From: Azolla caroliniana
Taxonomy: Eukaryota > Plantae > Polypodiophyta
Assembly (NCBI GenBank): GCA_043228905.1
Contig: JBHGNT010000118.1
Span: 1 to 64,000, forward strand
Reading direction: 5' to 3'
Length of the DNA stretch: 64,000 nucleotides
Part shown: positions 1 to 55,198 of the stretch, in pieces
How positions within the stretch are numbered: position 1 is the first letter of the stretch
How the letters are laid out: every line of letters starts with the position of its first letter
The notes under the pieces: model-generated
Databases searched by the model: none
What the model was told of the DNA's origin: nothing
The model's input: the letters and a program-made list of their open reading frames with translations, nothing else
Position numbers and translations under genes: made by a program

Positions 1-410
1 GCAGCGTGGTTGGAATTCTCAATTGCGGTTTCCGTCCAAGGTGCTCATACGTACAACCGTAATGCGTGGTCTTCCTCTGCGTTATTCCAGGTGACACGAG
101 TCTCGAGTAAGCGTCGGTCATTCCCAAGAACTTGAACCGCAGATTTGACCAGTAAGCGAGCAGATACCTATTACATCCGACTTTGACGTGATCGCCAAAT
201 GTATTCGGAAGCCCCAAGTAAGGCACCGTCATGGCGGTCACTTCGCAGGCTCATTCCTCTTAACCTTCCACACGTGCGCGGTTAGCAATCCCTAAAGAAC
301 TCCTCGAACGAAGCTCGGGCGGTAACGTCTTGAATAAGGACCCACGCAAGGAGGCGAGGGAAACAAGATCGTAGCGGTGGTTTTGACGTACAGCTAATTC
401 AACCGCGCGG

Positions 411-482
411 TATCAGAGCGAGGTTTCGATCCTCGGACCTGTGGGTTATGGGCCCACCACGCTTCCGCTGCGCCACTCTGAT
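411..482 (-). tRNA. tRNA-iMet: Initiator tRNA-Met (CAT), copy 1
   Basis: Reverse complement is ATCAGAG TG GCGC AGCGGAA GCGT G GTGGG CCCATAA CCCAC AGGTC CGAGG ATCGAAA CCTCG CTCTGAT A. Full cloverleaf with A1-U72, three G-C pairs at 29-31/39-41, C33, A54 and A60, all eukaryotic initiator hallmarks. Anticodon at 448-450. No intron. Confidence 0.98.
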
Positions 483-520
483 GCGGATGACTTGAAAGCC
501 AAAGAGAGATAAAGAATTCA
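483..520 (-). promoter_or_regulatory. Putative tRNA 5' flank: CAA at -12..-10 and AT-rich TTTAT near -30 (in every unit)
   Basis: Minus strand reads TGAATTCTTTATCTCTCTTTGGCTTTCAAGTCATCCGC then the tRNA. A CAA and a TA-rich box are typical upstream of plant tRNA genes. Internal A box TGGCGCAGCGG and B box GGATCGAAACC are intact. Confidence 0.45.
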
Positions 521-1480
521 AAGAGAACGACGCGAGAGCTCTTGCTTATTTCTCCATGTTAATCTACTCGAGAAGCCATGGAAACGTTGTAAACAAGGTC
601 GAGGTTAGCAAATGGAGCGTGAACAACCCGAGCATGAGCACGGCGGGTGGCCTCGTTAAGTAGTATGGATGTTCCTACCTACTCGGCGCACGTCAATGTG
701 TCTGCCTCGTTCGTTCTTGCTACGGACTTGGAGCGGGAGAACACCCTCTTGTGGGCAACGCGAGAGAGAGGGCGACCTGATTATTCTTGAGCATGGCGAC
801 ATACCACATTGGCTCGCTAGGAAACCGTCTTCCTCACCTTGGCGCGTCGAGGCCTTGTGTCACCCGTTGGACTCGGGTCGCCGCTTCTATGGTTGCACCG
901 AACTGGGAAAATGATCGACGATAGTTTCACACCAGTTTCCGTTCCCTTTCGGGAACCCTCAAACGCTATATGGTACGTGCCACAAACCTCGGGAAGCGAC
1001 CCCCCCTCGAAACTAGGTCATACGGCCTCCAGCCCGATGACGTGCGGACGTGGAAGGTTTGTCGACTAGCAAACAACCCGAGCCTTGCAGCATTCCGAGA
1101 ACGTTGTCATTCGTTACAGCGAGGACCTTCCTGTTTCTTCTCCGTTGACGTTGCATTGGAAAGGAAAGGGGAACAAGAGAACGCATTTCAACCGTTTTGT
1201 TTTGATCAGGGGTTGTTGGTGCGCGTCATTTGGCTCACGCTAAATCTCAAAGGCTGCAGCTAGAGTTTTGACGATGTTAAAAGGTGGTTACGTATCCCAC
1301 CGATCTATGGCTTTGTTCGGTAAAACCTGCAAGGCGAGACGATGTTGCCAGGATGTTTGGTCGGGAAGACGAGTCCGCAACCTTGGATGGATTGGTAGAT
1401 GGAGGGTAAATTGCACCAACATTGTCAACGGTAAGTTCTAACGTGTTGCATTGAACGTCGTGCCGTAACGGCTCCCGTCG

Positions 1481-1502
1481 AAAGCAAAAGAAAGACGTGA
1501 AA
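1481..1502 (-). terminator. Candidate Pol III terminator for tRNA copy 2 (first T4 run; repeated in every unit)
   Basis: Minus strand TTTCACGTCTTTCTTTTGCTTT. The T4 run (1486-1489) is the first one downstream of the tRNA 3' end at 1951, 461 nt away. Confidence 0.45.
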
Positions 1503-1950
1503 GAGAGCATCAAGTCTGATGCGCGGTTGCGGGGAATGTTGCAGCGTGGTTGGAATTCTCAATTGCGGTTTCCGTCCAAGGTGCTCATACGTACAACCGT
1601 AATGCGTGGTCTTCCTCTGCGTTATTCCAGGTGACACGAGTCTCGAGTAAGCGTCGGTCATTCCCAAGAACTTGAACCGCAGATTTGACCAGTAAGCGAG
1701 CAGATACCTATTACATCCGACTTTGACGTGATCGCCAAATGTATTCGGAAGCCCCAAGTAAGGCACCGTCATGGCGGTCACTTCGCAGGCTCATTCCTCT
1801 TAACCTTCCACACGTGCGCGGTTAGCAATCCCTAAAGAACTCCTCGAACGAAGCTCGGGCGGTAACGTCTTGAATAAGGACCCACGCAAGGAGGCGAGGG
1901 AAACAAGATCGTAGCGGTGGTTTTGACGTACAGCTAATTCAACCGCGCGG

Positions 1951-2022
1951 TATCAGAGCGAGGTTTCGATCCTCGGACCTGTGGGTTATGGGCCCACCAC
2001 GCTTCCGCTGCGCCACTCTGAT
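1951..2022 (-). tRNA. tRNA-iMet: Initiator tRNA-Met (CAT), copy 2
   Basis: Same sequence as copy 1. Confidence 0.97.
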
Positions 2023-3490
2023 GCGGATGACTTGAAAGCCAAAGAGAGATAAAGAATTCAAAGAGAACGACGCGAGAGCTCTTGCTTATTTCTCCATGTT
2101 AATCTACTCGAGAAGCCATGGAAACGTTGTAAACAAGGTCGAGGTTAGCAAATGGAGCGTGAACAACCCGAGCATGAGCACGGCGGGTGGCCTCGTTAAG
2201 TAGTATGGATGTTCCTACCTACTCGGCGCACGTCAATGTGTCTGCCTCGTTCGTTCTTGCTACGGACTTGGAGCGGGAGAACACCCTCTTGTGGGCAACG
2301 CGAGAGAGAGGGCGACCTGATTATTCTTGAGCATGGCGACATACCACATTGGCTCGCTAGGAAACCGTCTTCCTCACCTTGGCGCGTCGAGGCCTTGTGT
2401 CACCCGTTGGACTCGGGTCGCCGCTTCTATGGTTGCACCGAACTGGGAAAATGATCGACGATAGTTTCACACCAGTTTCCGTTCCCTTTCGGGAACCCTC
2501 AAACGCTATATGGTACGTGCCACAAACCTCGGGAAGCGACCCCCCCTCGAAACTAGGTCATACGGCCTCCAGCCCGATGACGTGCGGACGTGGAAGGTTT
2601 GTCGACTAGCAAACAACCCGAGCCTTGCAGCATTCCGAGAACGTTGTCATTCGTTACAGCGAGGACCTTCCTGTTTCTTCTCCGTTGACGTTGCATTGGA
2701 AAGGAAAGGGGAACAAGAGAACGCATTTCAACCGTTTTGTTTTGATCAGGGGTTGTTGGTGCGCGTCATTTGGCTCACGCTAAATCTCAAAGGCTGCAGC
2801 TAGAGTTTTGACGATGTTAAAAGGTGGTTACGTATCCCACCGATCTATGGCTTTGTTCGGTAAAACCTGCAAGGCGAGACGATGTTGCCAGGATGTTTGG
2901 TCGGGAAGACGAGTCCGCAACCTTGGATGGATTGGTAGATGGAGGGTAAATTGCACCAACATTGTCAACGGTAAGTTCTAACGTGTTGCATTGAACGTCG
3001 TGCCGTAACGGCTCCCGTCGAAAGCAAAAGAAAGACGTGAAAGAGAGCATCAAGTCTGATGCGCGGTTGCGGGGAATGTTGCAGCGTGGTTGGAATTCTC
3101 AATTGCGGTTTCCGTCCAAGGTGCTCATACGTACAACCGTAATGCGTGGTCTTCCTCTGCGTTATTCCAGGTGACACGAGTCTCGAGTAAGCGTCGGTCA
3201 TTCCCAAGAACTTGAACCGCAGATTTGACCAGTAAGCGAGCAGATACCTATTACATCCGACTTTGACGTGATCGCCAAATGTATTCGGAAGCCCCAAGTA
3301 AGGCACCGTCATGGCGGTCACTTCGCAGGCTCATTCCTCTTAACCTTCCACACGTGCGCGGTTAGCAATCCCTAAAGAACTCCTCGAACGAAGCTCGGGC
3401 GGTAACGTCTTGAATAAGGACCCACGCAAGGAGGCGAGGGAAACAAGATCGTAGCGGTGGTTTTGACGTACAGCTAATTCAACCGCGCGG

Positions 3491-3562
3491 TATCAGAGCG
3501 AGGTTTCGATCCTCGGACCTGTGGGTTATGGGCCCACCACGCTTCCGCTGCGCCACTCTGAT
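3491..3562 (-). tRNA. tRNA-iMet: Initiator tRNA-Met (CAT), copy 3
   Basis: Same sequence as copy 1. Confidence 0.97.
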
Positions 3563-5030
3563 GCGGATGACTTGAAAGCCAAAGAGAGATAAAGAATTCA
3601 AAGAGAACGACGCGAGAGCTCTTGCTTATTTCTCCATGTTAATCTACTCGAGAAGCCATGGAAACGTTGTAAACAAGGTCGAGGTTAGCAAATGGAGCGT
3701 GAACAACCCGAGCATGAGCACGGCGGGTGGCCTCGTTAAGTAGTATGGATGTTCCTACCTACTCGGCGCACGTCAATGTGTCTGCCTCGTTCGTTCTTGC
3801 TACGGACTTGGAGCGGGAGAACACCCTCTTGTGGGCAACGCGAGAGAGAGGGCGACCTGATTATTCTTGAGCATGGCGACATACCACATTGGCTCGCTAG
3901 GAAACCGTCTTCCTCACCTTGGCGCGTCGAGGCCTTGTGTCACCCGTTGGACTCGGGTCGCCGCTTCTATGGTTGCACCGAACTGGGAAAATGATCGACG
4001 ATAGTTTCACACCAGTTTCCGTTCCCTTTCGGGAACCCTCAAACGCTATATGGTACGTGCCACAAACCTCGGGAAGCGACCCCCCCTCGAAACTAGGTCA
4101 TACGGCCTCCAGCCCGATGACGTGCGGACGTGGAAGGTTTGTCGACTAGCAAACAACCCGAGCCTTGCAGCATTCCGAGAACGTTGTCATTCGTTACAGC
4201 GAGGACCTTCCTGTTTCTTCTCCGTTGACGTTGCATTGGAAAGGAAAGGGGAACAAGAGAACGCATTTCAACCGTTTTGTTTTGATCAGGGGTTGTTGGT
4301 GCGCGTCATTTGGCTCACGCTAAATCTCAAAGGCTGCAGCTAGAGTTTTGACGATGTTAAAAGGTGGTTACGTATCCCACCGATCTATGGCTTTGTTCGG
4401 TAAAACCTGCAAGGCGAGACGATGTTGCCAGGATGTTTGGTCGGGAAGACGAGTCCGCAACCTTGGATGGATTGGTAGATGGAGGGTAAATTGCACCAAC
4501 ATTGTCAACGGTAAGTTCTAACGTGTTGCATTGAACGTCGTGCCGTAACGGCTCCCGTCGAAAGCAAAAGAAAGACGTGAAAGAGAGCATCAAGTCTGAT
4601 GCGCGGTTGCGGGGAATGTTGCAGCGTGGTTGGAATTCTCAATTGCGGTTTCCGTCCAAGGTGCTCATACGTACAACCGTAATGCGTGGTCTTCCTCTGC
4701 GTTATTCCAGGTGACACGAGTCTCGAGTAAGCGTCGGTCATTCCCAAGAACTTGAACCGCAGATTTGACCAGTAAGCGAGCAGATACCTATTACATCCGA
4801 CTTTGACGTGATCGCCAAATGTATTCGGAAGCCCCAAGTAAGGCACCGTCATGGCAGTCACTTCGCAGGCTCATTCCTCTTAACCTTCCACACGTGCGCG
4901 GTTAGCAATCCCTAAAGAACTCCTCGAACGAAGCTCGGGCGGTAACGTCTTGAATAAGGACCCACGCAAGGAGGCGAGGGAAACAAGATCGTAGCGGTGG
5001 TTTTGACGTACAGCTAATTCAACCGCGCGG

Positions 5031-5102
5031 TATCAGAGCGAGGTTTCGATCCTCGGACCTGTGGGTTATGGGCCCACCACGCTTCCGCTGCGCCACTCTG
5101 AT
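5031..5102 (-). tRNA. tRNA-iMet: Initiator tRNA-Met (CAT), copy 4
   Basis: Same sequence as copy 1. Confidence 0.97.
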
Positions 5103-6570
5103 GCGGATGACTTGAAAGCCAAAGAGAGATAAAGAATTCAAAGAGAACGACGCGAGAGCTCTTGCTTATTTCTCCATGTTAATCTACTCGAGAAGCCATG
5201 GAAACGTTGTAAACAAGGTCGAGGTTAGCAAATGGAGCGTGAACAACCCGAGCATGAGCACGGCGGGTGGCCTCGTTAAGTAGTATGGATGTTCCTACCT
5301 ACTCGGCGCACGTCAATGTGTCTGCCTCGTTCGTTCTTGCTACGGACTTGGAGCGGGAGAACACCCTCTTGTGGGCAACGCGAGAGAGAGGGCGACCTGA
5401 TTATTCTTGAGCATGGCGACATACCACATTGGCTCGCTAGGAAACCGTCTTCCTCACCTTGGCGCGTCGAGGCCTTGTGTCACCCGTTGGACTCGGGTCG
5501 CCGCTTCTATGGTTGCACCGAACTGGGAAAATGATCGACGATAGTTTCACACCAGTTTCCGTTCCCTTTCGGGAACCCTCAAACGCTATATGGTACGTGC
5601 CACAAACCTCGGGAAGCGACCCCCCCTCGAAACTAGGTCATACGGCCTCCAGCCCGATGACGTGCGGACGTGGAAGGTTTGTCGACTAGCAAACAACCCG
5701 AGCCTTGCAGCATTCCGAGAACGTTGTCATTCGTTACAGCGAGGACCTTCCTGTTTCTTCTCCGTTGACGTTGCATTGGAAAGGAAAGGGGAACAAGAGA
5801 ACGCATTTCAACCGTTTTGTTTTGATCAGGGGTTGTTGGTGCGCGTCATTTGGCTCACGCTAAATCTCAAAGGCTGCAGCTAGAGTTTTGACGATGTTAA
5901 AAGGTGGTTACGTATCCCACCGATCTATGGCTTTGTTCGGTAAAACCTGCAAGGCGAGACGATGTTGCCAGGATGTTTGGTCGGGAAGACGAGTCCGCAA
6001 CCTTGGATGGATTGGTAGATGGAGGGTAAATTGCACCAACATTGTCAACGGTAAGTTCTAACGTGTTGCATTGAACGTCGTGCCGTAACGGCTCCCGTCG
6101 AAAGCAAAAGAAAGACGTGAAAGAGAGCATCAAGTCTGATGCGCGGTTGCGGGGAATGTTGCAGCGTGGTTGGAATTCTCAATTGCGGTTTCCGTCCAAG
6201 GTGCTCATACGTACAACCGTAATGCGTGGTCTTCCTCTGCGTTATTCCAGGTGACACGAGTCTCGAGTAAGCGTCGGTCATTCCCAAGAACTTGAACCGC
6301 AGATTTGACCAGTAAGCGAGCAGATACCTATTACATCCGACTTTGACGTGATCGCCAAATGTATTCGGAAGCCCCAAGTAAGGCACCGTCATGGCGGTCA
6401 CTTCGCAGGCTCATTCCTCTTAACCTTCCACACGTGCGCGGTTAGCAATCCCTAAAGAACTCCTCGAACGAAGCTCGGGCGGTAACGTCTTGAATAAGGA
6501 CCCACGCAAGGAGGCGAGGGAAACAAGATCGTAGCGGTGGTTTTGACGTACAGCTAATTCAACCGCGCGG

Positions 6571-6642
6571 TATCAGAGCGAGGTTTCGATCCTCGGACCT
6601 GTGGGTTATGGGCCCACCACGCTTCCGCTGCGCCACTCTGAT
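6571..6642 (-). tRNA. tRNA-iMet: Initiator tRNA-Met (CAT), copy 5
   Basis: Same sequence as copy 1. Confidence 0.97.
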
Positions 6643-8110
6643 GCGGATGACTTGAAAGCCAAAGAGAGATAAAGAATTCAAAGAGAACGACGCGAGAGCT
6701 CTTGCTTATTTCTCCATGTTAATCTACTCGAGAAGCCATGGAAACGTTGTAAACAAGGTCGAGGTTAGCAAATGGAGCGTGAACAACCCGAGCATGAGCA
6801 CGGCGGGTGGCCTCGTTAAGTAGTATGGATGTTCCTACCTACTCGGCGCACGTCAATGTGTCTGCCTCGTTCGTTCTTGCTACGGACTTGGAGCGGGAGA
6901 ACACCCTCTTGTGGGCAACGCGAGAGAGAGGGCGACCTGATTATTCTTGAGCATGGCGACATACCACATTGGCTCGCTAGGAAACCGTCTTCCTCACCTT
7001 GGCGCGTCGAGGCCTTGTGTCACCCGTTGGACTCGGGTCGCCGCTTCTATGGTTGCACCGAACTGGGAAAATGATCGACGATAGTTTCACACCAGTTTCC
7101 GTTCCCTTTCGGGAACCCTCAAACGCTATATGGTACGTGCCACAAACCTCGGGAAGCGACCCCCCCTCGAAACTAGGTCATACGGCCTCCAGCCCGATGA
7201 CGTGCGGACGTGGAAGGTTTGTCGACTAGCAAACAACCCGAGCCTTGCAGCATTCCGAGAACGTTGTCATTCGTTACAGCGAGGACCTTCCTGTTTCTTC
7301 TCCGTTGACGTTGCATTGGAAAGGAAAGGGGAACAAGAGAACGCATTTCAACCGTTTTGTTTTGATCAGGGGTTGTTGGTGCGCGTCATTTGGCTCACGC
7401 TAAATCTCAAAGGCTGCAGCTAGAGTTTTGACGATGTTAAAAGGTGGTTACGTATCCCACCGATCTATGGCTTTGTTCGGTAAAACCTGCAAGGCGAGAC
7501 GATGTTGCCAGGATGTTTGGTCGGGAAGACGAGTCCGCAACCTTGGATGGATTGGTAGATGGAGGGTAAATTGCACCAACATTGTCAACGGTAAGTTCTA
7601 ACGTGTTGCATTGAACGTCGTGCCGTAACGGCTCCCGTCGAAAGCAAAAGAAAGACGTGAAAGAGAGCATCAAGTCTGATGCGCGGTTGCGGGGAATGTT
7701 GCAGCGTGGTTGGAATTCTCAATTGCGGTTTCCGTCCAAGGTGCTCATACGTACAACCGTAATGCGTGGTCTTCCTCTGCGTTATTCCAGGTGACACGAG
7801 TCTCGAGTAAGCGTCGGTCATTCCCAAGAACTTGAACCGCAGATTTGACCAGTAAGCGAGCAGATACCTATTACATCCGACTTTGACGTGATCGCCAAAT
7901 GTATTCGGAAGCCCCAAGTAAGGCACCGTCATGGCGGTCACTTCGCAGGCTCATTCCTCTTAACCTTCCACACGTGCGCGGTTAGCAATCCCTAAAGAAC
8001 TCCTCGAACGAAGCTCGGGCGGTAACGTCTTGAATAAGGACCCACGCAAGGAGGCGAGGGAAACAAGATCGTAGCGGTGGTTTTGACGTACAGCTAATTC
8101 AACCGCGCGG

Positions 8111-8182
8111 TATCAGAGCGAGGTTTCGATCCTCGGACCTGTGGGTTATGGGCCCACCACGCTTCCGCTGCGCCACTCTGAT
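8111..8182 (-). tRNA. tRNA-iMet: Initiator tRNA-Met (CAT), copy 6
   Basis: Same sequence as copy 1. Confidence 0.97.
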
Positions 8183-9650
8183 GCGGATGACTTGAAAGCC
8201 AAAGAGAGATAAAGAATTCAAAGAGAACGACGCGAGAGCTCTTGCTTATTTCTCCATGTTAATCTACTCGAGAAGCCATGGAAACGTTGTAAACAAGGTC
8301 GAGGTTAGCAAATGGAGCGTGAACAACCCGAGCATGAGCACGGCGGGTGGCCTCGTTAAGTAGTATGGATGTTCCTACCTACTCGGCGCACGTCAATGTG
8401 TCTGCCTCGTTCGTTCTTGCTACGGACTTGGAGCGGGAGAACACCCTCTTGTGGGCAACGCGAGAGAGAGGGCGACCTGATTATTCTTGAGCATGGCGAC
8501 ATACCACATTGGCTCGCTAGGAAACCGTCTTCCTCACCTTGGCGCGTCGAGGCCTTGTGTCACCCGTTGGACTCGGGTCGCCGCTTCTATGGTTGCACCG
8601 AACTGGGAAAATGATCGACGATAGTTTCACACCAGTTTCCGTTCCCTTTCGGGAACCCTCAAACGCTATATGGTACGTGCCACAAACCTCGGGAAGCGAC
8701 CCCCCCTCGAAACTAGGTCATACGGCCTCCAGCCCGATGACGTGCGGACGTGGAAGGTTTGTCGACTAGCAAACAACCCGAGCCTTGCAGCATTCCGAGA
8801 ACGTTGTCATTCGTTACAGCGAGGACCTTCCTGTTTCTTCTCCGTTGACGTTGCATTGGAAAGGAAAGGGGAACAAGAGAACGCATTTCAACCGTTTTGT
8901 TTTGATCAGGGGTTGTTGGTGCGCGTCATTTGGCTCACGCTAAATCTCAAAGGCTGCAGCTAGAGTTTTGACGATGTTAAAAGGTGGTTACGTATCCCAC
9001 CGATCTATGGCTTTGTTCGGTAAAACCTGCAAGGCGAGACGATGTTGCCAGGATGTTTGGTCGGGAAGACGAGTCCGCAACCTTGGATGGATTGGTAGAT
9101 GGAGGGTAAATTGCACCAACATTGTCAACGGTAAGTTCTAACGTGTTGCATTGAACGTCGTGCCGTAACGGCTCCCGTCGAAAGCAAAAGAAAGACGTGA
9201 AAGAGAGCATCAAGTCTGATGCGCGGTTGCGGGGAATGTTGCAGCGTGGTTGGAATTCTCAATTGCGGTTTCCGTCCAAGGTGCTCATACGTACAACCGT
9301 AATGCGTGGTCTTCCTCTGCGTTATTCCAGGTGACACGAGTCTCGAGTAAGCGTCGGTCATTCCCAAGAACTTGAACCGCAGATTTGACCAGTAAGCGAG
9401 CAGATACCTATTACATCCGACTTTGACGTGATCGCCAAATGTATTCGGAAGCCCCAAGTAAGGCACCGTCATGGCGGTCACTTCGCAGGCTCATTCCTCT
9501 TAACCTTCCACACGTGCGCGGTTAGCAATCCCTAAAGAACTCCTCGAACGAAGCTCGGGCGGTAACGTCTTGAATAAGGACCCACGCAAGGAGGCGAGGG
9601 AAACAAGATCGTAGCGGTGGTTTTGACGTACAGCTAATTCAACCGCGCGG

Positions 9651-9722
9651 TATCAGAGCGAGGTTTCGATCCTCGGACCTGTGGGTTATGGGCCCACCAC
9701 GCTTCCGCTGCGCCACTCTGAT
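9651..9722 (-). tRNA. tRNA-iMet: Initiator tRNA-Met (CAT), copy 7
   Basis: Same sequence as copy 1. Confidence 0.97.
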
Positions 9723-11190
9723 GCGGATGACTTGAAAGCCAAAGAGAGATAAAGAATTCAAAGAGAACGACGCGAGAGCTCTTGCTTATTTCTCCATGTT
9801 AATCTACTCGAGAAGCCATGGAAACGTTGTAAACAAGGTCGAGGTTAGCAAATGGAGCGTGAACAACCCGAGCATGAGCACGGCGGGTGGCCTCGTTAAG
9901 TAGTATGGATGTTCCTACCTACTCGGCGCACGTCAATGTGTCTGCCTCGTTCGTTCTTGCTACGGACTTGGAGCGGGAGAACACCCTCTTGTGGGCAACG
10001 CGAGAGAGAGGGCGACCTGATTATTCTTGAGCATGGCGACATACCACATTGGCTCGCTAGGAAACCGTCTTCCTCACCTTGGCGCGTCGAGGCCTTGTGT
10101 CACCCGTTGGACTCGGGTCGCCGCTTCTATGGTTGCACCGAACTGGGAAAATGATCGACGATAGTTTCACACCAGTTTCCGTTCCCTTTCGGGAACCCTC
10201 AAACGCTATATGGTACGTGCCACAAACCTCGGGAAGCGACCCCCCCTCGAAACTAGGTCATACGGCCTCCAGCCCGATGACGTGCGGACGTGGAAGGTTT
10301 GTCGACTAGCAAACAACCCGAGCCTTGCAGCATTCCGAGAACGTTGTCATTCGTTACAGCGAGGACCTTCCTGTTTCTTCTCCGTTGACGTTGCATTGGA
10401 AAGGAAAGGGGAACAAGAGAACGCATTTCAACCGTTTTGTTTTGATCAGGGGTTGTTGGTGCGCGTCATTTGGCTCACGCTAAATCTCAAAGGCTGCAGC
10501 TAGAGTTTTGACGATGTTAAAAGGTGGTTACGTATCCCACCGATCTATGGCTTTGTTCGGTAAAACCTGCAAGGCGAGACGATGTTGCCAGGATGTTTGG
10601 TCGGGAAGACGAGTCCGCAACCTTGGATGGATTGGTAGATGGAGGGTAAATTGCACCAACATTGTCAACGGTAAGTTCTAACGTGTTGCATTGAACGTCG
10701 TGCCGTAACGGCTCCCGTCGAAAGCAAAAGAAAGACGTGAAAGAGAGCATCAAGTCTGATGCGCGGTTGCGGGGAATGTTGCAGCGTGGTTGGAATTCTC
10801 AATTGCGGTTTCCGTCCAAGGTGCTCATACGTACAACCGTAATGCGTGGTCTTCCTCTGCGTTATTCCAGGTGACACGAGTCTCGAGTAAGCGTCGGTCA
10901 TTCCCAAGAACTTGAACCGCAGATTTGACCAGTAAGCGAGCAGATACCTATTACATCCGACTTTGACGTGATCGCCAAATGTATTCGGAAGCCCCAAGTA
11001 AGGCACCGTCATGGCAGTCACTTCGCAGGCTCATTCCTCTTAACCTTCCACACGTGCGCGGTTAGCAATCCCTAAAGAACTCCTCGAACGAAGCTCGGGC
11101 GGTAACGTCTTGAATAAGGACCCACGCAAGGAGGCGAGGGAAACAAGATCGTAGCGGTGGTTTTGACGTACAGCTAATTCAACCGCGCGG

Positions 11191-11262
11191 TATCAGAGCG
11201 AGGTTTCGATCCTCGGACCTGTGGGTTATGGGCCCACCACGCTTCCGCTGCGCCACTCTGAT
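11191..11262 (-). tRNA. tRNA-iMet: Initiator tRNA-Met (CAT), copy 8
   Basis: Same sequence as copy 1. Confidence 0.97.
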
Positions 11263-12730
11263 GCGGATGACTTGAAAGCCAAAGAGAGATAAAGAATTCA
11301 AAGAGAACGACGCGAGAGCTCTTGCTTATTTCTCCATGTTAATCTACTCGAGAAGCCATGGAAACGTTGTAAACAAGGTCGAGGTTAGCAAATGGAGCGT
11401 GAACAACCCGAGCATGAGCACGGCGGGTGGCCTCGTTAAGTAGTATGGATGTTCCTACCTACTCGGCGCACGTCAATGTGTCTGCCTCGTTCGTTCTTGC
11501 TACGGACTTGGAGCGGGAGAACACCCTCTTGTGGGCAACGCGAGAGAGAGGGCGACCTGATTATTCTTGAGCATGGCGACATACCACATTGGCTCGCTAG
11601 GAAACCGTCTTCCTCACCTTGGCGCGTCGAGGCCTTGTGTCACCCGTTGGACTCGGGTCGCCGCTTCTATGGTTGCACCGAACTGGGAAAATGATCGACG
11701 ATAGTTTCACACCAGTTTCCGTTCCCTTTCGGGAACCCTCAAACGCTATATGGTACGTGCCACAAACCTCGGGAAGCGACCCCCCCTCGAAACTAGGTCA
11801 TACGGCCTCCAGCCCGATGACGTGCGGACGTGGAAGGTTTGTCGACTAGCAAACAACCCGAGCCTTGCAGCATTCCGAGAACGTTGTCATTCGTTACAGC
11901 GAGGACCTTCCTGTTTCTTCTCCGTTGACGTTGCATTGGAAAGGAAAGGGGAACAAGAGAACGCATTTCAACCGTTTTGTTTTGATCAGGGGTTGTTGGT
12001 GCGCGTCATTTGGCTCACGCTAAATCTCAAAGGCTGCAGCTAGAGTTTTGACGATGTTAAAAGGTGGTTACGTATCCCACCGATCTATGGCTTTGTTCGG
12101 TAAAACCTGCAAGGCGAGACGATGTTGCCAGGATGTTTGGTCGGGAAGACGAGTCCGCAACCTTGGATGGATTGGTAGATGGAGGGTAAATTGCACCAAC
12201 ATTGTCAACGGTAAGTTCTAACGTGTTGCATTGAACGTCGTGCCGTAACGGCTCCCGTCGAAAGCAAAAGAAAGACGTGAAAGAGAGCATCAAGTCTGAT
12301 GCGCGGTTGCGGGGAATGTTGCAGCGTGGTTGGAATTCTCAATTGCGGTTTCCGTCCAAGGTGCTCATACGTACAACCGTAATGCGTGGTCTTCCTCTGC
12401 GTTATTCCAGGTGACACGAGTCTCGAGTAAGCGTCGGTCATTCCCAAGAACTTGAACCGCAGATTTGACCAGTAAGCGAGCAGATACCTATTACATCCGA
12501 CTTTGACGTGATCGCCAAATGTATTCGGAAGCCCCAAGTAAGGCACCGTCATGGCGGTCACTTCGCAGGCTCATTCCTCTTAACCTTCCACACGTGCGCG
12601 GTTAGCAATCCCTAAAGAACTCCTCGAACGAAGCTCGGGCGGTAACGTCTTGAATAAGGACCCACGCAAGGAGGCGAGGGAAACAAGATCGTAGCGGTGG
12701 TTTTGACGTACAGCTAATTCAACCGCGCGG

Positions 12731-12802
12731 TATCAGAGCGAGGTTTCGATCCTCGGACCTGTGGGTTATGGGCCCACCACGCTTCCGCTGCGCCACTCTG
12801 AT
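12731..12802 (-). tRNA. tRNA-iMet: Initiator tRNA-Met (CAT), copy 9
   Basis: Same sequence as copy 1. Confidence 0.97.
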
Positions 12803-14270
12803 GCGGATGACTTGAAAGCCAAAGAGAGATAAAGAATTCAAAGAGAACGACGCGAGAGCTCTTGCTTATTTCTCCATGTTAATCTACTCGAGAAGCCATG
12901 GAAACGTTGTAAACAAGGTCGAGGTTAGCAAATGGAGCGTGAACAACCCGAGCATGAGCACGGCGGGTGGCCTCGTTAAGTAGTATGGATGTTCCTACCT
13001 ACTCGGCGCACGTCAATGTGTCTGCCTCGTTCGTTCTTGCTACGGACTTGGAGCGGGAGAACACCCTCTTGTGGGCAACGCGAGAGAGAGGGCGACCTGA
13101 TTATTCTTGAGCATGGCGACATACCACATTGGCTCGCTAGGAAACCGTCTTCCTCACCTTGGCGCGTCGAGGCCTTGTGTCACCCGTTGGACTCGGGTCG
13201 CCGCTTCTATGGTTGCACCGAACTGGGAAAATGATCGACGATAGTTTCACACCAGTTTCCGTTCCCTTTCGGGAACCCTCAAACGCTATATGGTACGTGC
13301 CACAAACCTCGGGAAGCGACCCCCCCTCGAAACTAGGTCATACGGCCTCCAGCCCGATGACGTGCGGACGTGGAAGGTTTGTCGACTAGCAAACAACCCG
13401 AGCCTTGCAGCATTCCGAGAACGTTGTCATTCGTTACAGCGAGGACCTTCCTGTTTCTTCTCCGTTGACGTTGCATTGGAAAGGAAAGGGGAACAAGAGA
13501 ACGCATTTCAACCGTTTTGTTTTGATCAGGGGTTGTTGGTGCGCGTCATTTGGCTCACGCTAAATCTCAAAGGCTGCAGCTAGAGTTTTGACGATGTTAA
13601 AAGGTGGTTACGTATCCCACCGATCTATGGCTTTGTTCGGTAAAACCTGCAAGGCGAGACGATGTTGCCAGGATGTTTGGTCGGGAAGACGAGTCCGCAA
13701 CCTTGGATGGATTGGTAGATGGAGGGTAAATTGCACCAACATTGTCAACGGTAAGTTCTAACGTGTTGCATTGAACGCCGTGCCGTAACGGCTCCCGTCG
13801 AAAGCAAAAGAAAGACGTGAAAGAGAGCATCAAGTCTGATGCGCGGTTGCGGGGAATGTTGCAGCGTGGTTGGAATTCTCAATTGCGGTTTCCGTCCAAG
13901 GTGCTCATACGTACAACCGTAATGCGTGGTCTTCCTCTGCGTTATTCCAGGTGACACGAGTCTCGAGTAAGCGTCGGTCATTCCCAAGAACTTGAACCGC
14001 AGATTTGACCAGTAAGCGAGCAGATACCTATTACATCCGACTTTGACGTGATCGCCAAATGTATTCGGAAGCCCCAAGTAAGGCACCGTCATGGCAGTCA
14101 CTTCGCAGGCTCATTCCTCTTAACCTTCCACACGTGCGCGGTTAGCAATCCCTAAAGAACTCCTCGAACGAAGCTCGGGCGGTAACGTCTTGAATAAGGA
14201 CCCACGCAAGGAGGCGAGGGAAACAAGATCGTAGCGGTGGTTTTGACGTACAGCTAATTCAACCGCGCGG

Positions 14271-45070: not shown

Positions 45071-45142
45071 TATCAGAGCGAGGTTTCGATCCTCGGACCT
45101 GTGGGTTATGGGCCCACCACGCTTCCGCTGCGCCACTCTGAT
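45071..45142 (-). tRNA. tRNA-iMet: Initiator tRNA-Met (CAT), copy 30
   Basis: Same sequence as copy 1. Confidence 0.97.
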
Positions 45143-46610: not shown

Positions 46611-46682
46611 TATCAGAGCGAGGTTTCGATCCTCGGACCTGTGGGTTATGGGCCCACCACGCTTCCGCTGCGCCACTCTGAT
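46611..46682 (-). tRNA. tRNA-iMet: Initiator tRNA-Met (CAT), copy 31
   Basis: Same sequence as copy 1. Confidence 0.97.
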
Positions 46683-48150: not shown

Positions 48151-48222
48151 TATCAGAGCGAGGTTTCGATCCTCGGACCTGTGGGTTATGGGCCCACCAC
48201 GCTTCCGCTGCGCCACTCTGAT
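48151..48222 (-). tRNA. tRNA-iMet: Initiator tRNA-Met (CAT), copy 32
   Basis: Same sequence as copy 1. Confidence 0.97.
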
Positions 48223-49690
48223 GCGGATGACTTGAAAGCCAAAGAGAGATAAAGAATTCAAAGAGAACGACGCGAGAGCTCTTGCTTATTTCTCCATGTT
48301 AATCTACTCGAGAAGCCATGGAAACGTTGTAAACAAGGTCGAGGTTAGCAAATGGAGCGTGAACAACCCGAGCATGAGCACGGCGGGTGGCCTCGTTAAG
48401 TAGTATGGATGTTCCTACCTACTCGGCGCACGTCAATGTGTCTGCCTCGTTCGTTCTTGCTACGGACTTGGAGCGGGAGAACACCCTCTTGTGGGCAACG
48501 CGAGAGAGAGGGCGACCTGATTATTCTTGAGCATGGCGACATACCACATTGGCTCGCTAGGAAACCGTCTTCCTCACCTTGGCGCGTCGAGGCCTTGTGT
48601 CACCCGTTGGACTCGGGTCGCCGCTTCTATGGTTGCACCGAACTGGGAAAATGATCGACGATAGTTTCACACCAGTTTCCGTTCCCTTTCGGGAACCCTC
48701 AAACGCTATATGGTACGTGCCACAAACCTCGGGAAGCGACCCCCCCTCGAAACTAGGTCATACGGCCTCCAGCCCGATGACGTGCGGACGTGGAAGGTTT
48801 GTCGACTAGCAAACAACCCGAGCCTTGCAGCATTCCGAGAACGTTGTCATTCGTTACAGCGAGGACCTTCCTGTTTCTTCTCCGTTGACGTTGCATTGGA
48901 AAGGAAAGGGGAACAAGAGAACGCATTTCAACCGTTTTGTTTTGATCAGGGGTTGTTGGTGCGCGTCATTTGGCTCACGCTAAATCTCAAAGGCTGCAGC
49001 TAGAGTTTTGACGATGTTAAAAGGTGGTTACGTATCCCACCGATCTATGGCTTTGTTCGGTAAAACCTGCAAGGCGAGACGATGTTGCCAGGATGTTTGG
49101 TCGGGAAGACGAGTCCGCAACCTTGGATGGATTGGTAGATGGAGGGTAAATTGCACCAACATTGTCAACGGTAAGTTCTAACGTGTTGCATTGAACGTCG
49201 TGCCGTAACGGCTCCCGTCGAAAGCAAAAGAAAGACGTGAAAGAGAGCATCAAGTCTGATGCGCGGTTGCGGGGAATGTTGCAGCGTGGTTGGAATTCTC
49301 AATTGCGGTTTCCGTCCAAGGTGCTCATACGTACAACCGTAATGCGTGGTCTTCCTCTGCGTTATTCCAGGTGACACGAGTCTCGAGTAAGCGTCGGTCA
49401 TTCCCAAGAACTTGAACCGCAGATTTGACCAGTAAGCGAGCAGATACCTATTACATCCGACTTTGACGTGATCGCCAAATGTATTCGGAAGCCCCAAGTA
49501 AGGCACCGTCATGGCAGTCACTTCGCAGGCTCATTCCTCTTAACCTTCCACACGTGCGCGGTTAGCAATCCCTAAAGAACTCCTCGAACGAAGCTCGGGC
49601 GGTAACGTCTTGAATAAGGACCCACGCAAGGAGGCGAGGGAAACAAGATCGTAGCGGTGGTTTTGACGTACAGCTAATTCAACCGCGCGG

Positions 49691-49762
49691 TATCAGAGCG
49701 AGGTTTCGATCCTCGGACCTGTGGGTTATGGGCCCACCACGCTTCCGCTGCGCCACTCTGAT
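49691..49762 (-). tRNA. tRNA-iMet: Initiator tRNA-Met (CAT), copy 33
   Basis: Same sequence as copy 1. Confidence 0.97.
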
Positions 49763-51230
49763 GCGGATGACTTGAAAGCCAAAGAGAGATAAAGAATTCA
49801 AAGAGAACGACGCGAGAGCTCTTGCTTATTTCTCCATGTTAATCTACTCGAGAAGCCATGGAAACGTTGTAAACAAGGTCGAGGTTAGCAAATGGAGCGT
49901 GAACAACCCGAGCATGAGCACGGCGGGTGGCCTCGTTAAGTAGTATGGATGTTCCTACCTACTCGGCGCACGTCAATGTGTCTGCCTCGTTCGTTCTTGC
50001 TACGGACTTGGAGCGGGAGAACACCCTCTTGTGGGCAACGCGAGAGAGAGGGCGACCTGATTATTCTTGAGCATGGCGACATACCACATTGGCTCGCTAG
50101 GAAACCGTCTTCCTCACCTTGGCGCGTCGAGGCCTTGTGTCACCCGTTGGACTCGGGTCGCCGCTTCTATGGTTGCACCGAACTGGGAAAATGATCGACG
50201 ATAGTTTCACACCAGTTTCCGTTCCCTTTCGGGAACCCTCAAACGCTATATGGTACGTGCCACAAACCTCGGGAAGCGACCCCCCCTCGAAACTAGGTCA
50301 TACGGCCTCCAGCCCGATGACGTGCGGACGTGGAAGGTTTGTCGACTAGCAAACAACCCGAGCCTTGCAGCATTCCGAGAACGTTGTCATTCGTTACAGC
50401 GAGGACCTTCCTGTTTCTTCTCCGTTGACGTTGCATTGGAAAGGAAAGGGGAACAAGAGAACGCATTTCAACCGTTTTGTTTTGATCAGGGGTTGTTGGT
50501 GCGCGTCATTTGGCTCACGCTAAATCTCAAAGGCTGCAGCTAGAGTTTTGACGATGTTAAAAGGTGGTTACGTATCCCACCGATCTATGGCTTTGTTCGG
50601 TAAAACCTGCAAGGCGAGACGATGTTGCCAGGATGTTTGGTCGGGAAGACGAGTCCGCAACCTTGGATGGATTGGTAGATGGAGGGTAAATTGCACCAAC
50701 ATTGTCAACGGTAAGTTCTAACGTGTTGCATTGAACGTCGTGCCGTAACGGCTCCCGTCGAAAGCAAAAGAAAGACGTGAAAGAGAGCATCAAGTCTGAT
50801 GCGCGGTTGCGGGGAATGTTGCAGCGTGGTTGGAATTCTCAATTGCGGTTTCCGTCCAAGGTGCTCATACGTACAACCGTAATGCGTGGTCTTCCTCTGC
50901 GTTATTCCAGGTGACACGAGTCTCGAGTAAGCGTCGGTCATTCCCAAGAACTTGAACCGCAGATTTGACCAGTAAGCGAGCAGATACCTATTACATCCGA
51001 CTTTGACGTGATCGCCAAATGTATTCGGAAGCCCCAAGTAAGGCACCGTCATGGCAGTCACTTCGCAGGCTCATTCCTCTTAACCTTCCACACGTGCGCG
51101 GTTAGCAATCCCTAAAGAACTCCTCGAACGAAGCTCGGGCGGTAACGTCTTGAATAAGGACCCACGCAAGGAGGCGAGGGAAACAAGATCGTAGCGGTGG
51201 TTTTGACGTACAGCTAATTCAACCGCGCGG

Positions 51231-51302
51231 TATCAGAGCAAGGTTTCGATCCTCGGACCTGTGGGTTATGGGCCCACCACGCTTCCGCTGCGCCACTCTG
51301 AT
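51231..51302 (-). tRNA. tRNA-iMet: Initiator tRNA-Met (CAT), copy 34, C64U variant
   Basis: As copy 1 except g>a at 51240 (tatcagagca), which turns G50-C64 into a G50-U64 wobble. Confidence 0.95.
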
Positions 51303-52770
51303 GCGGATGACTTGAAAGCCAAAGAGAGATAAAGAATTCAAAGAGAACGACGCGAGAGCTCTTGCTTATTTCTCCATGTTAATCTACTCGAGAAGCCATG
51401 GAAACGTTGTAAACAAGGTCGAGGTTAGCAAATGGAGCGTGAACAACCCGAGCATGAGCACGGCGGGTGGCCTCGTTAAGTAGTATGGATGTTCCTACCT
51501 ACTCGGCGCACGTCAATGTGTCTGCCTCGTTCGTTCTTGCTACGGACTTGGAGCGGGAGAACACCCTCTTGTGGGCAACGCGAGAGAGAGGGCGACCTGA
51601 TTATTCTTGAGCATGGCGACATACCACATTGGCTCGCTAGGAAACCGTCTTCCTCACCTTGGCGCGTCGAGGCCTTGTGTCACCCGTTGGACTCGGGTCG
51701 CCGCTTCTATGGTTGCACCGAACTGGGAAAATGATCGACGATAGTTTCACACCAGTTTCCGTTCCCTTTCGGGAACCCTCAAACGCTATATGGTACGTGC
51801 CACAAACCTCGGGAAGCGACCCCCCCTCGAAACTAGGTCATACGGCCTCCAGCCCGATGACGTGCGGACGTGGAAGGTTTGTCGACTAGCAAACAACCCG
51901 AGCCTTGCAGCATTCCGAGAACGTTGTCATTCGTTACAGCGAGGACCTTCCTGTTTCTTCTCCGTTGACGTTGCATTGGAAAGGAAAGGGGAACAAGAGA
52001 ACGCATTTCAACCGTTTTGTTTTGATCAGGGGTTGTTGGTGCGCGTCATTTGGCTCACGCTAAATCTCAAAGGCTGCAGCTAGAGTTTTGACGATGTTAA
52101 AAGGTGGTTACGTATCCCACCGATCTATGGCTTTGTTCGGTAAAACCTGCAAGGCGAGACGATGTTGCCAGGATGTTTGGTCGGGAAGACGAGTCCGCAA
52201 CCTTGGATGGATTGGTAGATGGAGGGTAAATTGCACCAACATTGTCAACGGTAAGTTCTAACGTGTTGCATTGAACGTCGTGCCGTAACGGCTCCCGTCG
52301 AAAGCAAAAGAAAGACGTGAAAGAGAGCATCAAGTCTGATGCGCGGTTGCGGGGAATGTTGCAGCGTGGTTGGAATTCTCAATTGCGGTTTCCGTCCAAG
52401 GTGCTCATACGTACAACCGTAATGCGTGGTCTTCCTCTGCGTTATTCCAGGTGACACGAGTCTCGAGTAAGCGTCGGTCATTCCCAAGAACTTGAACCGC
52501 AGATTTGACCAGTAAGCGAGCAGATACCTATTACATCCGACTTTGACGTGATCGCCAAATGTATTCGGAAGCCCCAAGTAAGGCACCGTCATGGCAGTCA
52601 CTTCGCAGGCTCATTCCTCTTAACCTTCCACACGTGCGCGGTTAGCAATCCCTAAAGAACTCCTCGAACGAAGCTCGGGCGGTAACGTCTTGAATAAGGA
52701 CCCACGCAAGGAGGCGAGGGAAACAAGATCGTAGCGGTGGTTTTGACGTACAGCTAATTCAACCGCGCGG

Positions 52771-52842
52771 TATCAGAGCGAGGTTTCGATCCTCGGACCT
52801 GTGGGTTATGGGCCCACCACGCTTCCGCTGCGCCACTCTGAT
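52771..52842 (-). tRNA. tRNA-iMet: Initiator tRNA-Met (CAT), copy 35
   Basis: Same sequence as copy 1. Confidence 0.97.
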
Positions 52843-54310
52843 GCGGATGACTTGAAAGCCAAAGAGAGATAAAGAATTCAAAGAGAACGACGCGAGAGCT
52901 CTTGCTTATTTCTCCATGTTAATCTACTCGAGAAGCCATGGAAACGTTGTAAACAAGGTCGAGGTTAGCAAATGGAGCGTGAACAACCCGAGCATGAGCA
53001 CGGCGGGTGGCCTCGTTAAGTAGTATGGATGTTCCTACCTACTCGGCGCACGTCAATGTGTCTGCCTCGTTCGTTCTTGCTACGGACTTGGAGCGGGAGA
53101 ACACCCTCTTGTGGGCAACGCGAGAGAGAGGGCGACCTGATTATTCTTGAGCATGGCGACATACCACATTGGCTCGCTAGGAAACCGTCTTCCTCACCTT
53201 GGCGCGTCGAGGCCTTGTGTCACCCGTTGGACTCGGGTCGCCGCTTCTATGGTTGCACCGAACTGGGAAAATGATCGACGATAGTTTCACACCAGTTTCC
53301 GTTCCCTTTCGGGAACCCTCAAACGCTATATGGTACGTGCCACAAACCTCGGGAAGCGACCCCCCCTCGAAACTAGGTCATACGGCCTCCAGCCCGATGA
53401 CGTGCGGACGTGGAAGGTTTGTCGACTAGCAAACAACCCGAGCCTTGCAGCATTCCGAGAACGTTGTCATTCGTTACAGCGAGGACCTTCCTGTTTCTTC
53501 TCCGTTGACGTTGCATTGGAAAGGAAAGGGGAACAAGAGAACGCATTTCAACCGTTTTGTTTTGATCAGGGGTTGTTGGTGCGCGTCATTTGGCTCACGC
53601 TAAATCTCAAAGGCTGCAGCTAGAGTTTTGACGATGTTAAAAGGTGGTTACGTATCCCACCGATCTATGGCTTTGTTCGGTAAAACCTGCAAGGCGAGAC
53701 GATGTTGCCAGGATGTTTGGTCGGGAAGACGAGTCCGCAACCTTGGATGGATTGGTAGATGGAGGGTAAATTGCACCAACATTGTCAACGGTAAGTTCTA
53801 ACGTGTTGCATTGAACGTCGTGCCGTAACGGCTCCCGTCGAAAGCAAAAGAAAGACGTGAAAGAGAGCATCAAGTCTGATGCGCGGTTGCGGGGAATGTT
53901 GCAGCGTGGTTGGAATTCTCAATTGCGGTTTCCGTCCAAGGTGCTCATACGTACAACCGTAATGCGTGGTCTTCCTCTGCGTTATTCCAGGTGACACGAG
54001 TCTCGAGTAAGCGTCGGTCATTCCCAAGAACTTGAACCGCAGATTTGACCAGTAAGCGAGCAGATACCTATTACATCCGACTTTGACGTGATCGCCAAAT
54101 GTATTCGGAAGCCCCAAGTAAGGCACCGTCATGGCAGTCACTTCGCAGGCTCATTCCTCTTAACCTTCCACACGTGCGCGGTTAGCAATCCCTAAAGAAC
54201 TCCTCGAACGAAGCTCGGGCGGTAACGTCTTGAATAAGGACCCACGCAAGGAGGCGAGGGAAACAAGATCGTAGCGGTGGTTTTGACGTACAGCTAATTC
54301 AACCGCGCGG

Positions 54311-54382
54311 TATCAGAGCGAGGTTTCGATCCTCGGACCTGTGGGTTATGGGCCCACCACGCTTCCGCTGCGCCACTCTGAT
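54311..54382 (-). tRNA. tRNA-iMet: Initiator tRNA-Met (CAT), copy 36 (terminal unit)
   Basis: Same sequence as copy 1. Confidence 0.97.
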
Positions 54383-55160
54383 GCGGATGACTTGAAAGCC
54401 AAAGAGAGATAAAGAATTCAAAGAGAACGACGCGAGAGCTCTTGCTTATTTCTCCATGTTAATCTACTCGAGAAGCCATGGAAACGTTGTAAACAAGGTC
54501 GAGGTTAGCAAATGGAGCGTGAACAACCCGAGCATGAGCACGGCGGGTGGCCTCGTTAAGTAGTATGGATGTTCCTACCTACTCGGCGCACGTCAATGTG
54601 TCTGCCTCGTTCGTTCTTGCTACGGACTTGGAGCGGGAGAACACCCTCTTGTGGGCAACGCGAGAGAGAGGGCGACCTGATTATTCTTGAGCATGGCGAC
54701 ATACCACATTGGCTCGCTAGGAAACCGTCTTCCTCACCTTGGCGCGTCGAGGCCTTGTGTCACCCGTTGGACTCGGGTCGCCGCTTCTATGGTTGCACCG
54801 AACTGGGAAAATGATCGACGATAGTTTCACACCAGTTTCCGTTCCCTTTCGGGAACCCTCAAACGCTATATGGTACGTGCCACAAACCTCGGGAAGCGAC
54901 CCCCCCCTCGAAACTAGGTCATACGGCCTCCAGCCCGATGACGTGCGGACGTGGAAGGTTTGTCGACTAGCAAACAACCCGAGCCTTGCAGCATTCCGAG
55001 AACGTTGTCATTCGTTACAGCGAGGACCTTCTTGTTTCTTCTCCGTTGACGTTGCATTGGAAAGGAAAGGGGAACAAGAGAACGCATTTCAACCGTTTTG
55101 TTTTGATCAGGGGTTGTTGGTGCGCATCATTTGGCTCACGCTAAATCTCAAAGGCTGCAG

Positions 55161-55198
55161 CTATGGGTTAATTAGGTAATTAACTATGGGTTAATTAG
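55161..55198. repeat. 15-bp direct repeat CTATGGGTTAATTAG at the array junction
   Basis: Copies at 55161-55175 and 55184-55198; the first CTA is shared with the end of the array. Confidence 0.9.

What the first reader, a model, noticed from the sequence alone, without database searches (positions are those of the whole stretch)
1..55163. rDNA-like tandem array of at least 36 initiator tRNA-Met genes
Seen in sequence: a near-invariant 1540-bp unit, each with one intact tRNA-iMet, all in the same orientation, over at least 55 kb and open on the left. I found no 5S rRNA, snRNA or real ORF in the unit. Established knowledge: plant tRNA genes are mostly dispersed. Tandem clusters are known (Arabidopsis Tyr-Tyr-Ser and Pro clusters), and iMet is normally a modest family. 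tRNA-iMet supplies the eIF2 ternary complex and primes reverse transcription of many plant LTR retrotransposons and caulimovirids. Inference: either a dosage amplification or a young satellite seeded by a tRNA gene.
Basis: partly seen in the sequence, partly recalled or inferred. Interest (0 to 1): 0.8.

Follow-up and report, generated by a model that had tools for sequence, protein, structure and literature searches.

The report
Fern initiator-tRNA tandem gene array
A plant genome, likely a fern's, holds at least 36 near-identical head-to-tail copies of a 1540-base unit, each with one initiator tRNA gene; the array is likely kept uniform by recombination, with the tRNA likely preserved by selection, a larger example of the tRNA gene clusters already known in plants.

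Summary
Confirmed. Bases 1-55163 hold 36 tRNA-iMet genes at an exact 1540-bp period, with 0.06% mean difference between units. The spacer holds no second RNA or convincing gene. The host is likely a fern (neighbouring PPR protein).

It is not an assembly artefact. A public run assembles the unit as a circle, and spacer-to-flank contig depth is about 54, 15 and 10 in three runs, so copy number likely varies. Two other-genotype runs differ at array-wide sites, the mark of concerted evolution.

The unit is old, not a newly seeded satellite. Tandem relatives in metagenome contigs share only 81-83% of the spacer but an identical tRNA, which points to purifying selection on the tRNA.

Expression is untested. 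Against strong activity: no T4 terminator for 461 bases, and mutations concentrate at methylatable cytosines.

Best reading: an Arabidopsis Ser-Tyr-Tyr-like cluster, drifting in size, with some copies active. Plant tRNA homoclusters are known, including a 6-copy iMet cluster in Marchantia and a 39-copy Ile cluster in maize. This is a new, larger iMet member, from a lineage missing in chromosome-scale cluster surveys. The scan had not noted it on other DNA.

The parts
1..55163 (-). Tandem array of a 1540-bp unit, 35 full units plus a 1263-base partial unit; open on the left
411..482 (-). First tRNA-iMet(CAT) gene, 72 nt; repeated every 1540 bp, 36 copies, the last at 54311-54382
483..522 (-). 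5' flank of the gene: CAA at -12, 75% A+T at -35 to -20, and a 10-nt leader resembling leaders of dispersed iMet genes
1486..1489 (-). First run of four T, 461 bases after the gene at 1951-2022; a broken T run (TTGTTT) lies at +45
51231..51302 (-). Copy 34, the one variant gene (C64 to U at window 51240, G:U wobble in the T stem)
53901..55163 (-). Terminal, partial unit; the most diverged copy, carrying at 55032 the allele that is the majority in runs X7 and X9
55164..55600 (.). Pieces of a very high-copy repeat, likely an LTR end, abutting the array (right limit approximate)
   Evidence: tables 2 and 7
56298..56609 (+). Histone H4 gene (flank, not part of the array; named from its translation)
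59329..59640 (+). Second histone H4 gene (flank)
61667..63619 (+). PPR protein gene, 650 codons; used to place the host among ferns

Best explanation
This is a tandem array of at least 36 intact initiator-tRNA genes, likely amplified and homogenised by unequal crossing-over and gene conversion, with the tRNA likely kept intact by selection while the spacer drifts. Shown: the array, its uniformity, neighbouring units sharing variants, and diverged tandem relatives with an identical tRNA. Inferred: an ordinary Pol III tRNA gene with about 1.47 kb of its surroundings was duplicated at the DNA level long ago; copy number has since gone up and down without strong selection on dose; the array is at least partly methylated; and only some copies, or some cell types, are transcribed, as in the Arabidopsis Ser-Tyr-Tyr cluster. 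Transcripts would start after the CAA/AT-rich flank and end at a broken T run at +45 or at the first T4 at +462, before 5' and 3' trimming and CCA addition.
For: (1) Variants are shared by neighbours: 15 adjacent differences, fewer than in all 20000 shuffles. (2) Array-wide differences between runs: the main spacer contigs of X7 and X9 differ from units 1-35 of the window, X1 and X4 at 54966 and 55032, and X9 also at 54731; that is 2-3 per 545 bases against 0.06% within the window. The terminal unit is the most diverged. (3) Relatives L003/L027/L028 alternate units of about 1503 and 925 bases. Their spacers are 81-83% identical to the window in aligned columns, and their three tRNA copies match it at 72/72, 72/72 and 31/31 visible bases. 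A 72/72 match has probability 2e-7 at 80.5% identity and 5e-5 at 87%. (4) The leader scores above all 2836 spacer positions on a profile of 11 dispersed genes (2 of 2836 score as high once the two closest are left out), and shares its last 9 and 7 bases with L012 and L002, so genomic flank came with the gene. (5) The gene is identical to 26 of 26 dispersed iMet copies retrieved (the search required 42 of the 72 bases to match). (6) 6 of 6 transition SNPs lie at CG or CHG (p=0.007), and divergence from the relatives is enriched at CHG (27/89 against 39/402 at CHH, p=3e-6). (7) Precedent: concerted evolution and likely neutral size drift of the SYY array (PMC2886086, abstract and section 17), silencing (PMC7544208, abstract), and cell-specific reactivation (PMC12308677, abstract).
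Against: Transcription is not shown. All 26 dispersed copies have T4 within 38 bases, whereas the window unit has none until +462; the relatives have it at +15 or +196. The conservation test rests on one family: L003 and L028 are identical over 1172 bases. Short-read contigs can also route different copies through one shared tRNA node. Gene conversion from active copies elsewhere could keep silent copies intact. CpG is not depleted (o/e 1.18 against 0.39-0.86 in the flank segments), which sits badly with long-standing methylation. The direction of the CHG changes cannot be fixed without an outgroup.
Confidence: 0.6

Rival explanations
1. A silent satellite: the unit is amplified as selfish or neutral repeat DNA, no copy is transcribed, and the tRNA stays perfect through gene conversion from active dispersed genes.
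For: No T4 for 461 bases, and the conserved trailer of dispersed genes is absent (853-1585 of 2816 spacer positions score as well for two of three units, 476 for the third). Mutations lie at CG/CHG. Diverged spacer copies at about 90% identity and low depth, and deletion forms, occur in X4, X7 and X9. Arabidopsis clusters are silent in most tissues (PMC7544208, abstract).
Against: The tRNA is invariant across 17-19% spacer divergence. Leader, CAA and AT-rich flank are retained. CpG o/e is 1.18. Non-angiosperm land plants have the lowest share of tRNA genes with T4 terminators (PMC13437025, section 5).
Confidence: 0.2
2. Selected dosage amplification: the array is the main, active source of initiator tRNA, enlarged to raise ternary-complex supply in a fast-growing plant.
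For: 36 copies in this window alone exceed the 1-34 iMet genes per genome reported for 50 plants (PMC12652284, passage). 35 of 36 genes are identical and the 36th keeps its pairing. The DNA is GC- and CpG-rich, with rDNA-like uniformity.
Against: The rough depth ratio ranges from 10 to 54 between runs. The terminator is weak. For the SYY array a dosage explanation was tested and judged unlikely (PMC2886086, section 17).
Confidence: 0.12
3. A tandem array of a non-autonomous LTR element (TRIM or Cassandra type) that captured a full copy of its iMet primer by reverse transcription.
For: On the plus strand the unit has a 6-purine run followed by TGTTG, then about 410 bases on a CAAC just before the complement of the tRNA 3' end. 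This resembles PPT, LTR ends and PBS (motifs recalled, spotted after the fact). Two of the three CCA bases follow the gene, and the short relatives have all three. An LTR-like repeat abuts the array.
Against: The 5' leader matches genomic leaders of dispersed genes, which a copied mature tRNA would lack. The TG start is absent in the long relative and deleted in the short one. The purine run is one of the shortest of 21 such runs on that strand. The CCA in the short relatives is a CG transition away from the window's CCG.
Confidence: 0.06
4. An assembly artefact: a few real copies expanded by the assembler.
For: 20 of 35 units are identical. No listed contig bridges the junction at 55163 (with 625 pieces not shown). 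Contig depth is not a copy number.
Against: Seven haplotypes in spatial blocks. A 1570-base contig in X1 returns to its own start. Spacer depth is 10 and 15 times the flank in X9 and X7, which differ from the window in the flank, and 54 times in X4, whose flank contig matches the window at 1077 of 1077 bases.
Confidence: 0.02

Closest known systems
Marchantia polymorpha chr5 tRNA-iMet homocluster (PMC13437025, Table S3 rows)
   Same: Same tRNA, same orientation, regular period, non-seed land plant.
   Different: 6 genes at about 345 bp over 1.8 kb, against 36 or more at 1540 bp over 55 kb or more. It is the only plant iMet cluster among the 46 'Meti' entries of that table.
Arabidopsis Ser-Tyr-Tyr cluster (PMC2886086, PMC7544208, PMC12308677)
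   Same: Regular tandem units (27 over about 40 kb), concerted evolution, copy-number change between relatives, methylation.
   Different: Three elongator tRNA genes per unit, with canonical flanks reported as conserved. Here there is one initiator gene per unit, no nearby T4, and near-complete identity of the whole spacer.
Maize tRNA-Ile and tRNA-Ala homoclusters (PMC13437025 Table S3; PMC11700998 passages)
   Same: Single-isotype tandem arrays of similar copy number (39 Ile genes).
   Different: Elongator tRNAs with short units (18 kb in all).
Human 1q23.3 tRNA VNTR (PMC4041453, abstract)
   Same: GC-rich unit, variable copy number (9-43 per allele), and only the tRNAs and one short site conserved between species.
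   Different: 7.3-kb unit with several tRNA genes and a conserved CTCF site. Here no spacer block is conserved beyond chance (longest run 32, 95% chance bound 34).
5S rDNA arrays; Xenopus 3.18-kb tRNA repeat with two iMet genes (both recalled, not read)
   Same: Pol III gene plus spacer, homogenised in tandem.
   Different: No 5S gene in this unit. The Xenopus unit carries several isotypes.

Membership tests
Eukaryotic cytosolic initiator tRNA gene | CAT anticodon, A1:U72, three G:C pairs at 29-31:39-41, A54 and A60, no intron | tested here: met
   Read from the Rfam alignment and sequence; the list of features is established knowledge, recalled
Eukaryotic cytosolic initiator tRNA gene | Purine at position 64 for Rit1 phosphoribosylation (plants, fungi) | tested here: not met
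   C64 here; A64 or G64 is the substrate (PMC7694415, passage). The same base stands in the 26 dispersed copies, which were selected on it, so it is not array-specific
Eukaryotic cytosolic initiator tRNA gene | Upstream AT-rich stretch and CAA | tested here: met
   75% A+T at -35 to -20 (top 1.1% of unit 16-mers); CAA at -12, just outside the -10 to -3 zone of PMC13437025
Eukaryotic cytosolic initiator tRNA gene | Run of four or more T shortly after the gene | tested here: not met
   First T4 at +462; broken T run at +45
Eukaryotic cytosolic initiator tRNA gene | Transcribed by Pol III and matured | not testable with these tools
   No raw RNA reads or ChIP data available
Plant tDNA homocluster | Five or more adjacent genes of one isotype within the proximity limit (or 10 within 50 kb) | tested here: met
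   36 genes, 33 within 50 kb (criteria from PMC13437025 sections 10 and 15). It would be missed by the under-1-kb criteria of PMC11700998 and PMC12652284
Concertedly evolving multigene array (rDNA-like) | Less variation within an array than between genotypes or relatives | tested here: met
   0.06% within; 2-3 differences per 545 bases to X7 and X9; 17-19% to L003/L028. Contigs show the majority path only
5S rDNA or snRNA-linked array | 5S or snRNA gene in the unit | tested here: not met
   Rfam finds only tRNA in the window unit (E<=1) and in L003 and L028 (E<=5)
Dicistronic tRNA-snoRNA gene | A second structured RNA behind the tRNA | tested here: not met
   The 465-base trailer has z=0.17; covariation term -0.31 on 4 sequences; none of 48 sliding windows has z below -1.4. 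Power is low for unstructured C/D RNAs
Non-autonomous LTR element array (TRIM, Cassandra) | Conserved TG...CA ends, PBS and PPT | tested here: inconclusive
   Partial look-alikes in the window unit, not kept in the relatives
Non-autonomous LTR element array (TRIM, Cassandra) | Dispersed copies with two LTRs and target-site duplications | not testable with these tools
   No whole genome is held

The most novel reading that the evidence does not exclude
Ferns of this lineage keep initiator tRNA in a 5S-rDNA-like locus: an old, homogenised, copy-number-variable array that is the main active source of tRNA-iMet. Array size would then set ternary-complex supply and the primer pool for iMet-primed retrotransposons. 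Arrays of this kind, collapsed or overlooked in earlier assemblies, would explain the extreme tRNA gene counts reported for ferns.
Probability: 0.2. Interest if true: 0.7.

Novelty: new member of a known kind. Interest (0 to 1): 0.45.

Why it matters
Why some ferns have thousands of tRNA genes (7848 for Azolla filiculoides, PMC13437025 Table S1) is open. The 2026 review offers only genome duplication and repeats (PMC13578239, passage), and the chromosome-scale cluster survey had no fern (PMC13437025, passage). This array shows one concrete route: tandem amplification with concerted evolution. Initiator tRNA is not tied to codon usage, so a natural copy-number series gives a clean test of whether tRNA gene dose, or silencing of clustered copies, sets translation initiation. 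The array's own leader and trailer let its transcripts be told from those of dispersed genes. If the array is silent, it is an ordinary, if large, tRNA cluster.

Tried and rejected
No whole genome is held, so the left end, other arrays and the number of dispersed iMet genes are unknown.

No RNA holder was listed by the run search; this says nothing on expression. Runs X15-X18 held next to none of the words, which is no proof of absence. I laid 4 of the 18 runs listed, on 744 bases of spacer and 1087 bases of flank only, so depth and variation over the tRNA itself were not seen. X1 was flagged as a possible source of this DNA, and X4 matches the flank exactly, so neither counts as independent.

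A second RNA in the spacer: none by Rfam, folding or covariation. A conserved spacer element: none beyond chance. Homology of the 3' trailer to that of dispersed genes looked plausible by eye and was rejected by the profile test. An array-specific tRNA variant: rejected, since dispersed copies are identical. Unit sequence in the right flank: no blastn hit.

A Pfam scan failed on a frame error and was not repeated.

Searches of earlier findings by sequence and words found no report of this array. Paper searches for fern or iMet tandem arrays found no description of it. The supplement of PMC12652284 (Tables S7-S9, tandem clusters, which include iMet pairs) could not be read and may list further plant iMet clusters. 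Subscription papers and the PlantRNA database were out of reach.
Full report
Observation. ARAGORN reports 36 tRNA-Met(CAT) genes on the minus strand at a period of exactly 1540 bp. Rfam places the 72-nt gene at 411-482 and finds nothing else in the first two units at E<=1. The 35 full units differ from their majority sequence at 19 bases over 5 positions; 20 of 35 are identical and the mean pairwise difference is 0.06%. The 36th unit is partial and stops at 55163. The gene has the eukaryotic initiator features (A1:U72, three G:C pairs in the anticodon stem, A54, A60, no intron; feature list recalled). Copy 34 alone differs, C64 to U, leaving a G:U pair.

Host. The flank holds two histone H4 genes and a 650-codon PPR gene. 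Of the 120 PPR relatives listed, 76 name a species and 66 of those are ferns by my count (Ceratopteris, Adiantum), at only 35-48% identity. The host is therefore likely a fern other than those. I did not determine the species.

Is the array real? 14 of 18 listed runs hold the unit or part of it, 10 of them at half its words or more. I laid four runs on 744 bases of spacer and 1087 of flank. X1 (flagged as a possible source) has a 1570-base contig that returns to its own start, as a tandem unit does. Main spacer contig against flank contig depth is 1779/32.9 in X4, 138/9.2 in X7 and 176/17.9 in X9, that is 54, 15 and 10. The tool warns that contig depth is not a copy number, and the flank contig may stand for one haplotype or two, so these are rough. 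They argue against a few-copy artefact and suggest that size varies. X4 matches the window's flank at 1077 of 1077 bases and may be the same genotype; X7 and X9 differ from it. No listed piece bridges the junction (625 pieces were not shown).

How it evolves. Variants are shared by neighbouring units (15 adjacent differences, p=5e-5 on 20000 shuffles), as expected from local duplication or conversion. In X7 and X9 the majority spacer differs from units 1-35 at 54966 and 55032, and in X9 also at 54731. The window's terminal unit carries the X7/X9 allele at 55032 and is its most diverged copy, as edge copies of homogenised arrays tend to be (established knowledge). Diverged spacer pieces near 90% identity at low depth, and a deletion form, occur in X4, X7 and X9.

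Age and selection. An exact search for 42 bases of the gene in metagenome contigs gave 29 loci. Three (L003, L027, L028; one family, identical where they overlap) are tandem relatives of the whole unit, alternating a unit of about 1503 bases with one of about 925 that lacks unit positions 377-957. Their spacers match the window at 81-83% of aligned columns, evenly along the unit; the longest perfect run is 32 bases, under the 95% chance bound of 34. Their three tRNA copies are identical to the window's at 72/72, 72/72 and 31/31 visible bases. One match was required by the search, the neighbour was not; 72/72 has probability 2e-7 at 80.5% and 5e-5 at 87% identity. I read this as purifying selection on the tRNA within the tandem context. 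Collapse of copies in short-read contigs and gene conversion from active genes are the caveats.

Signals for transcription. The other 26 loci are single genes in AT-rich DNA with the same tRNA sequence. The window's leader scores above all 2836 spacer positions on a profile of 11 representatives, and shares its last 9 and 7 bases with L012 and L002. It has CAA at -12 and 75% A+T at -35 to -20. So the gene was duplicated with genomic flank. Against activity, all 26 dispersed copies have T4 within 38 bases, whereas the window unit has none until +462, with only a broken run at +45 (use of such runs as terminators is recalled from human work). PMC13437025 (section 5, part 1) reports that non-angiosperm land plants have the lowest share of T4 terminators. 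The read-through region is not structured (z=0.17). All 6 transition SNPs lie at CG or CHG (p=0.007), and divergence from the relatives is enriched at CHG and CG, which suggests methylation in at least one lineage. Yet CpG is not depleted (o/e 1.18), which I cannot fully explain; GC-biased conversion is a guess.

Right edge. The array joins pieces of a repeat whose summed depth is several hundred times the flank's. Its other copies begin with TG after unrelated sequence, and in X1 some follow the complement of an iMet-type primer binding site (table 7). It is likely an LTR end. I see no evidence that it caused the array. The unit itself has partial look-alikes of PPT, LTR ends and PBS, but they are not kept in the relatives and the leader argues against capture of a mature tRNA; I give this 0.06.

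Comparison. Plant tDNA homoclusters are established (PMC13437025: abstract, sections 5 part 1, 10, 15, passages, supplement rows; PMC13578239: section 23, passages; PMC11700998 and PMC12652284: passages). In Table S3 of PMC13437025, I saw all 46 'Meti' entries: the only plant one is a 6-gene, 345-bp-period cluster in Marchantia. Among the 30 of 96 homocluster rows I saw, the largest is 39 Ile genes over 18 kb in maize. PMC12652284 gives 1-34 iMet genes per genome in 50 plants and has no occurrence of 'fern'; its supplement could not be read. The Arabidopsis SYY array shows concerted evolution and probably neutral size change (PMC2886086, abstract and section 17), silencing (PMC7544208, abstract and section 13) and root-cap reactivation (PMC12308677, abstract). 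The human 1q23.3 VNTR is a close analogue in behaviour (PMC4041453, abstract). PlantRNA 2.0 (10.1101/2021.12.21.473619, first of two parts) and PMC6786969 (passages) did not describe fern tRNA arrays in what I read. Eight searches found no report of this array.

Verdict. Real, and a new member of a known kind: a concertedly evolving plant tRNA homocluster, unusual in isotype, size, spacer uniformity and lineage. Best reading 0.6; silent satellite 0.2; selected dosage 0.12; retroelement origin 0.06; artefact 0.02. Interest 0.45.

Noticed in passing
window 411-482 and all 26 dispersed loci (L001, L002, L004-L026, L029): The T stem has G50:C64, a pyrimidine at the site where Rit1 adds phosphoribose to A64 or G64 in plant and fungal initiator tRNA (PMC11301382, PMC7694415, passages). 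These organisms may block elongation use by sequence, or Rit1 may accept C. The loci were selected on this base, so its frequency is unknown.
   Followed up: partly
L001, L002, L006, L008, L012, L018, L020, L022, L024, first 25 bases after the tRNA: 9 of 12 representative dispersed iMet genes carry a conserved 3' trailer with 5-7 bases complementary to the D loop of the tRNA, at +14 to +16 (p=0.0005 against shuffled trailers). It could be an alternative pre-tRNA fold. The array unit lacks it.
   Followed up: partly
L003 1-2097; L028 1-2348: The relatives alternate a long and a short unit (a two-unit higher-order repeat); the short unit lacks about 580 bases of spacer, and only the long one has T4 close to the gene (+15).
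   Followed up: partly
window 55161-55600: Array-to-repeat junction with a 15-base direct repeat at 23-base spacing; the repeat is likely an LTR end of a very abundant iMet-primed element, 781 bases upstream of the last tRNA gene.
   Followed up: partly
window 56298-56609 and 59329-59640: Two intronless histone H4 genes encoding the same protein, 3 kb apart, next to the array.
   Followed up: no
window 60866-61246: 48-bp minisatellite, 7.9 copies, 95% matches, open in frames on both strands; likely not coding.
   Followed up: no
window 54668-54729: A depth peak (4615 against 1779) in run X4 within the spacer suggests a short piece shared with a more abundant repeat; not seen in X1, X7 or X9.
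   Followed up: no
window 1-13860: The A/G variant at unit position 236 runs G G G A G G G A G, hinting at a recent four-unit duplication.
   Followed up: no
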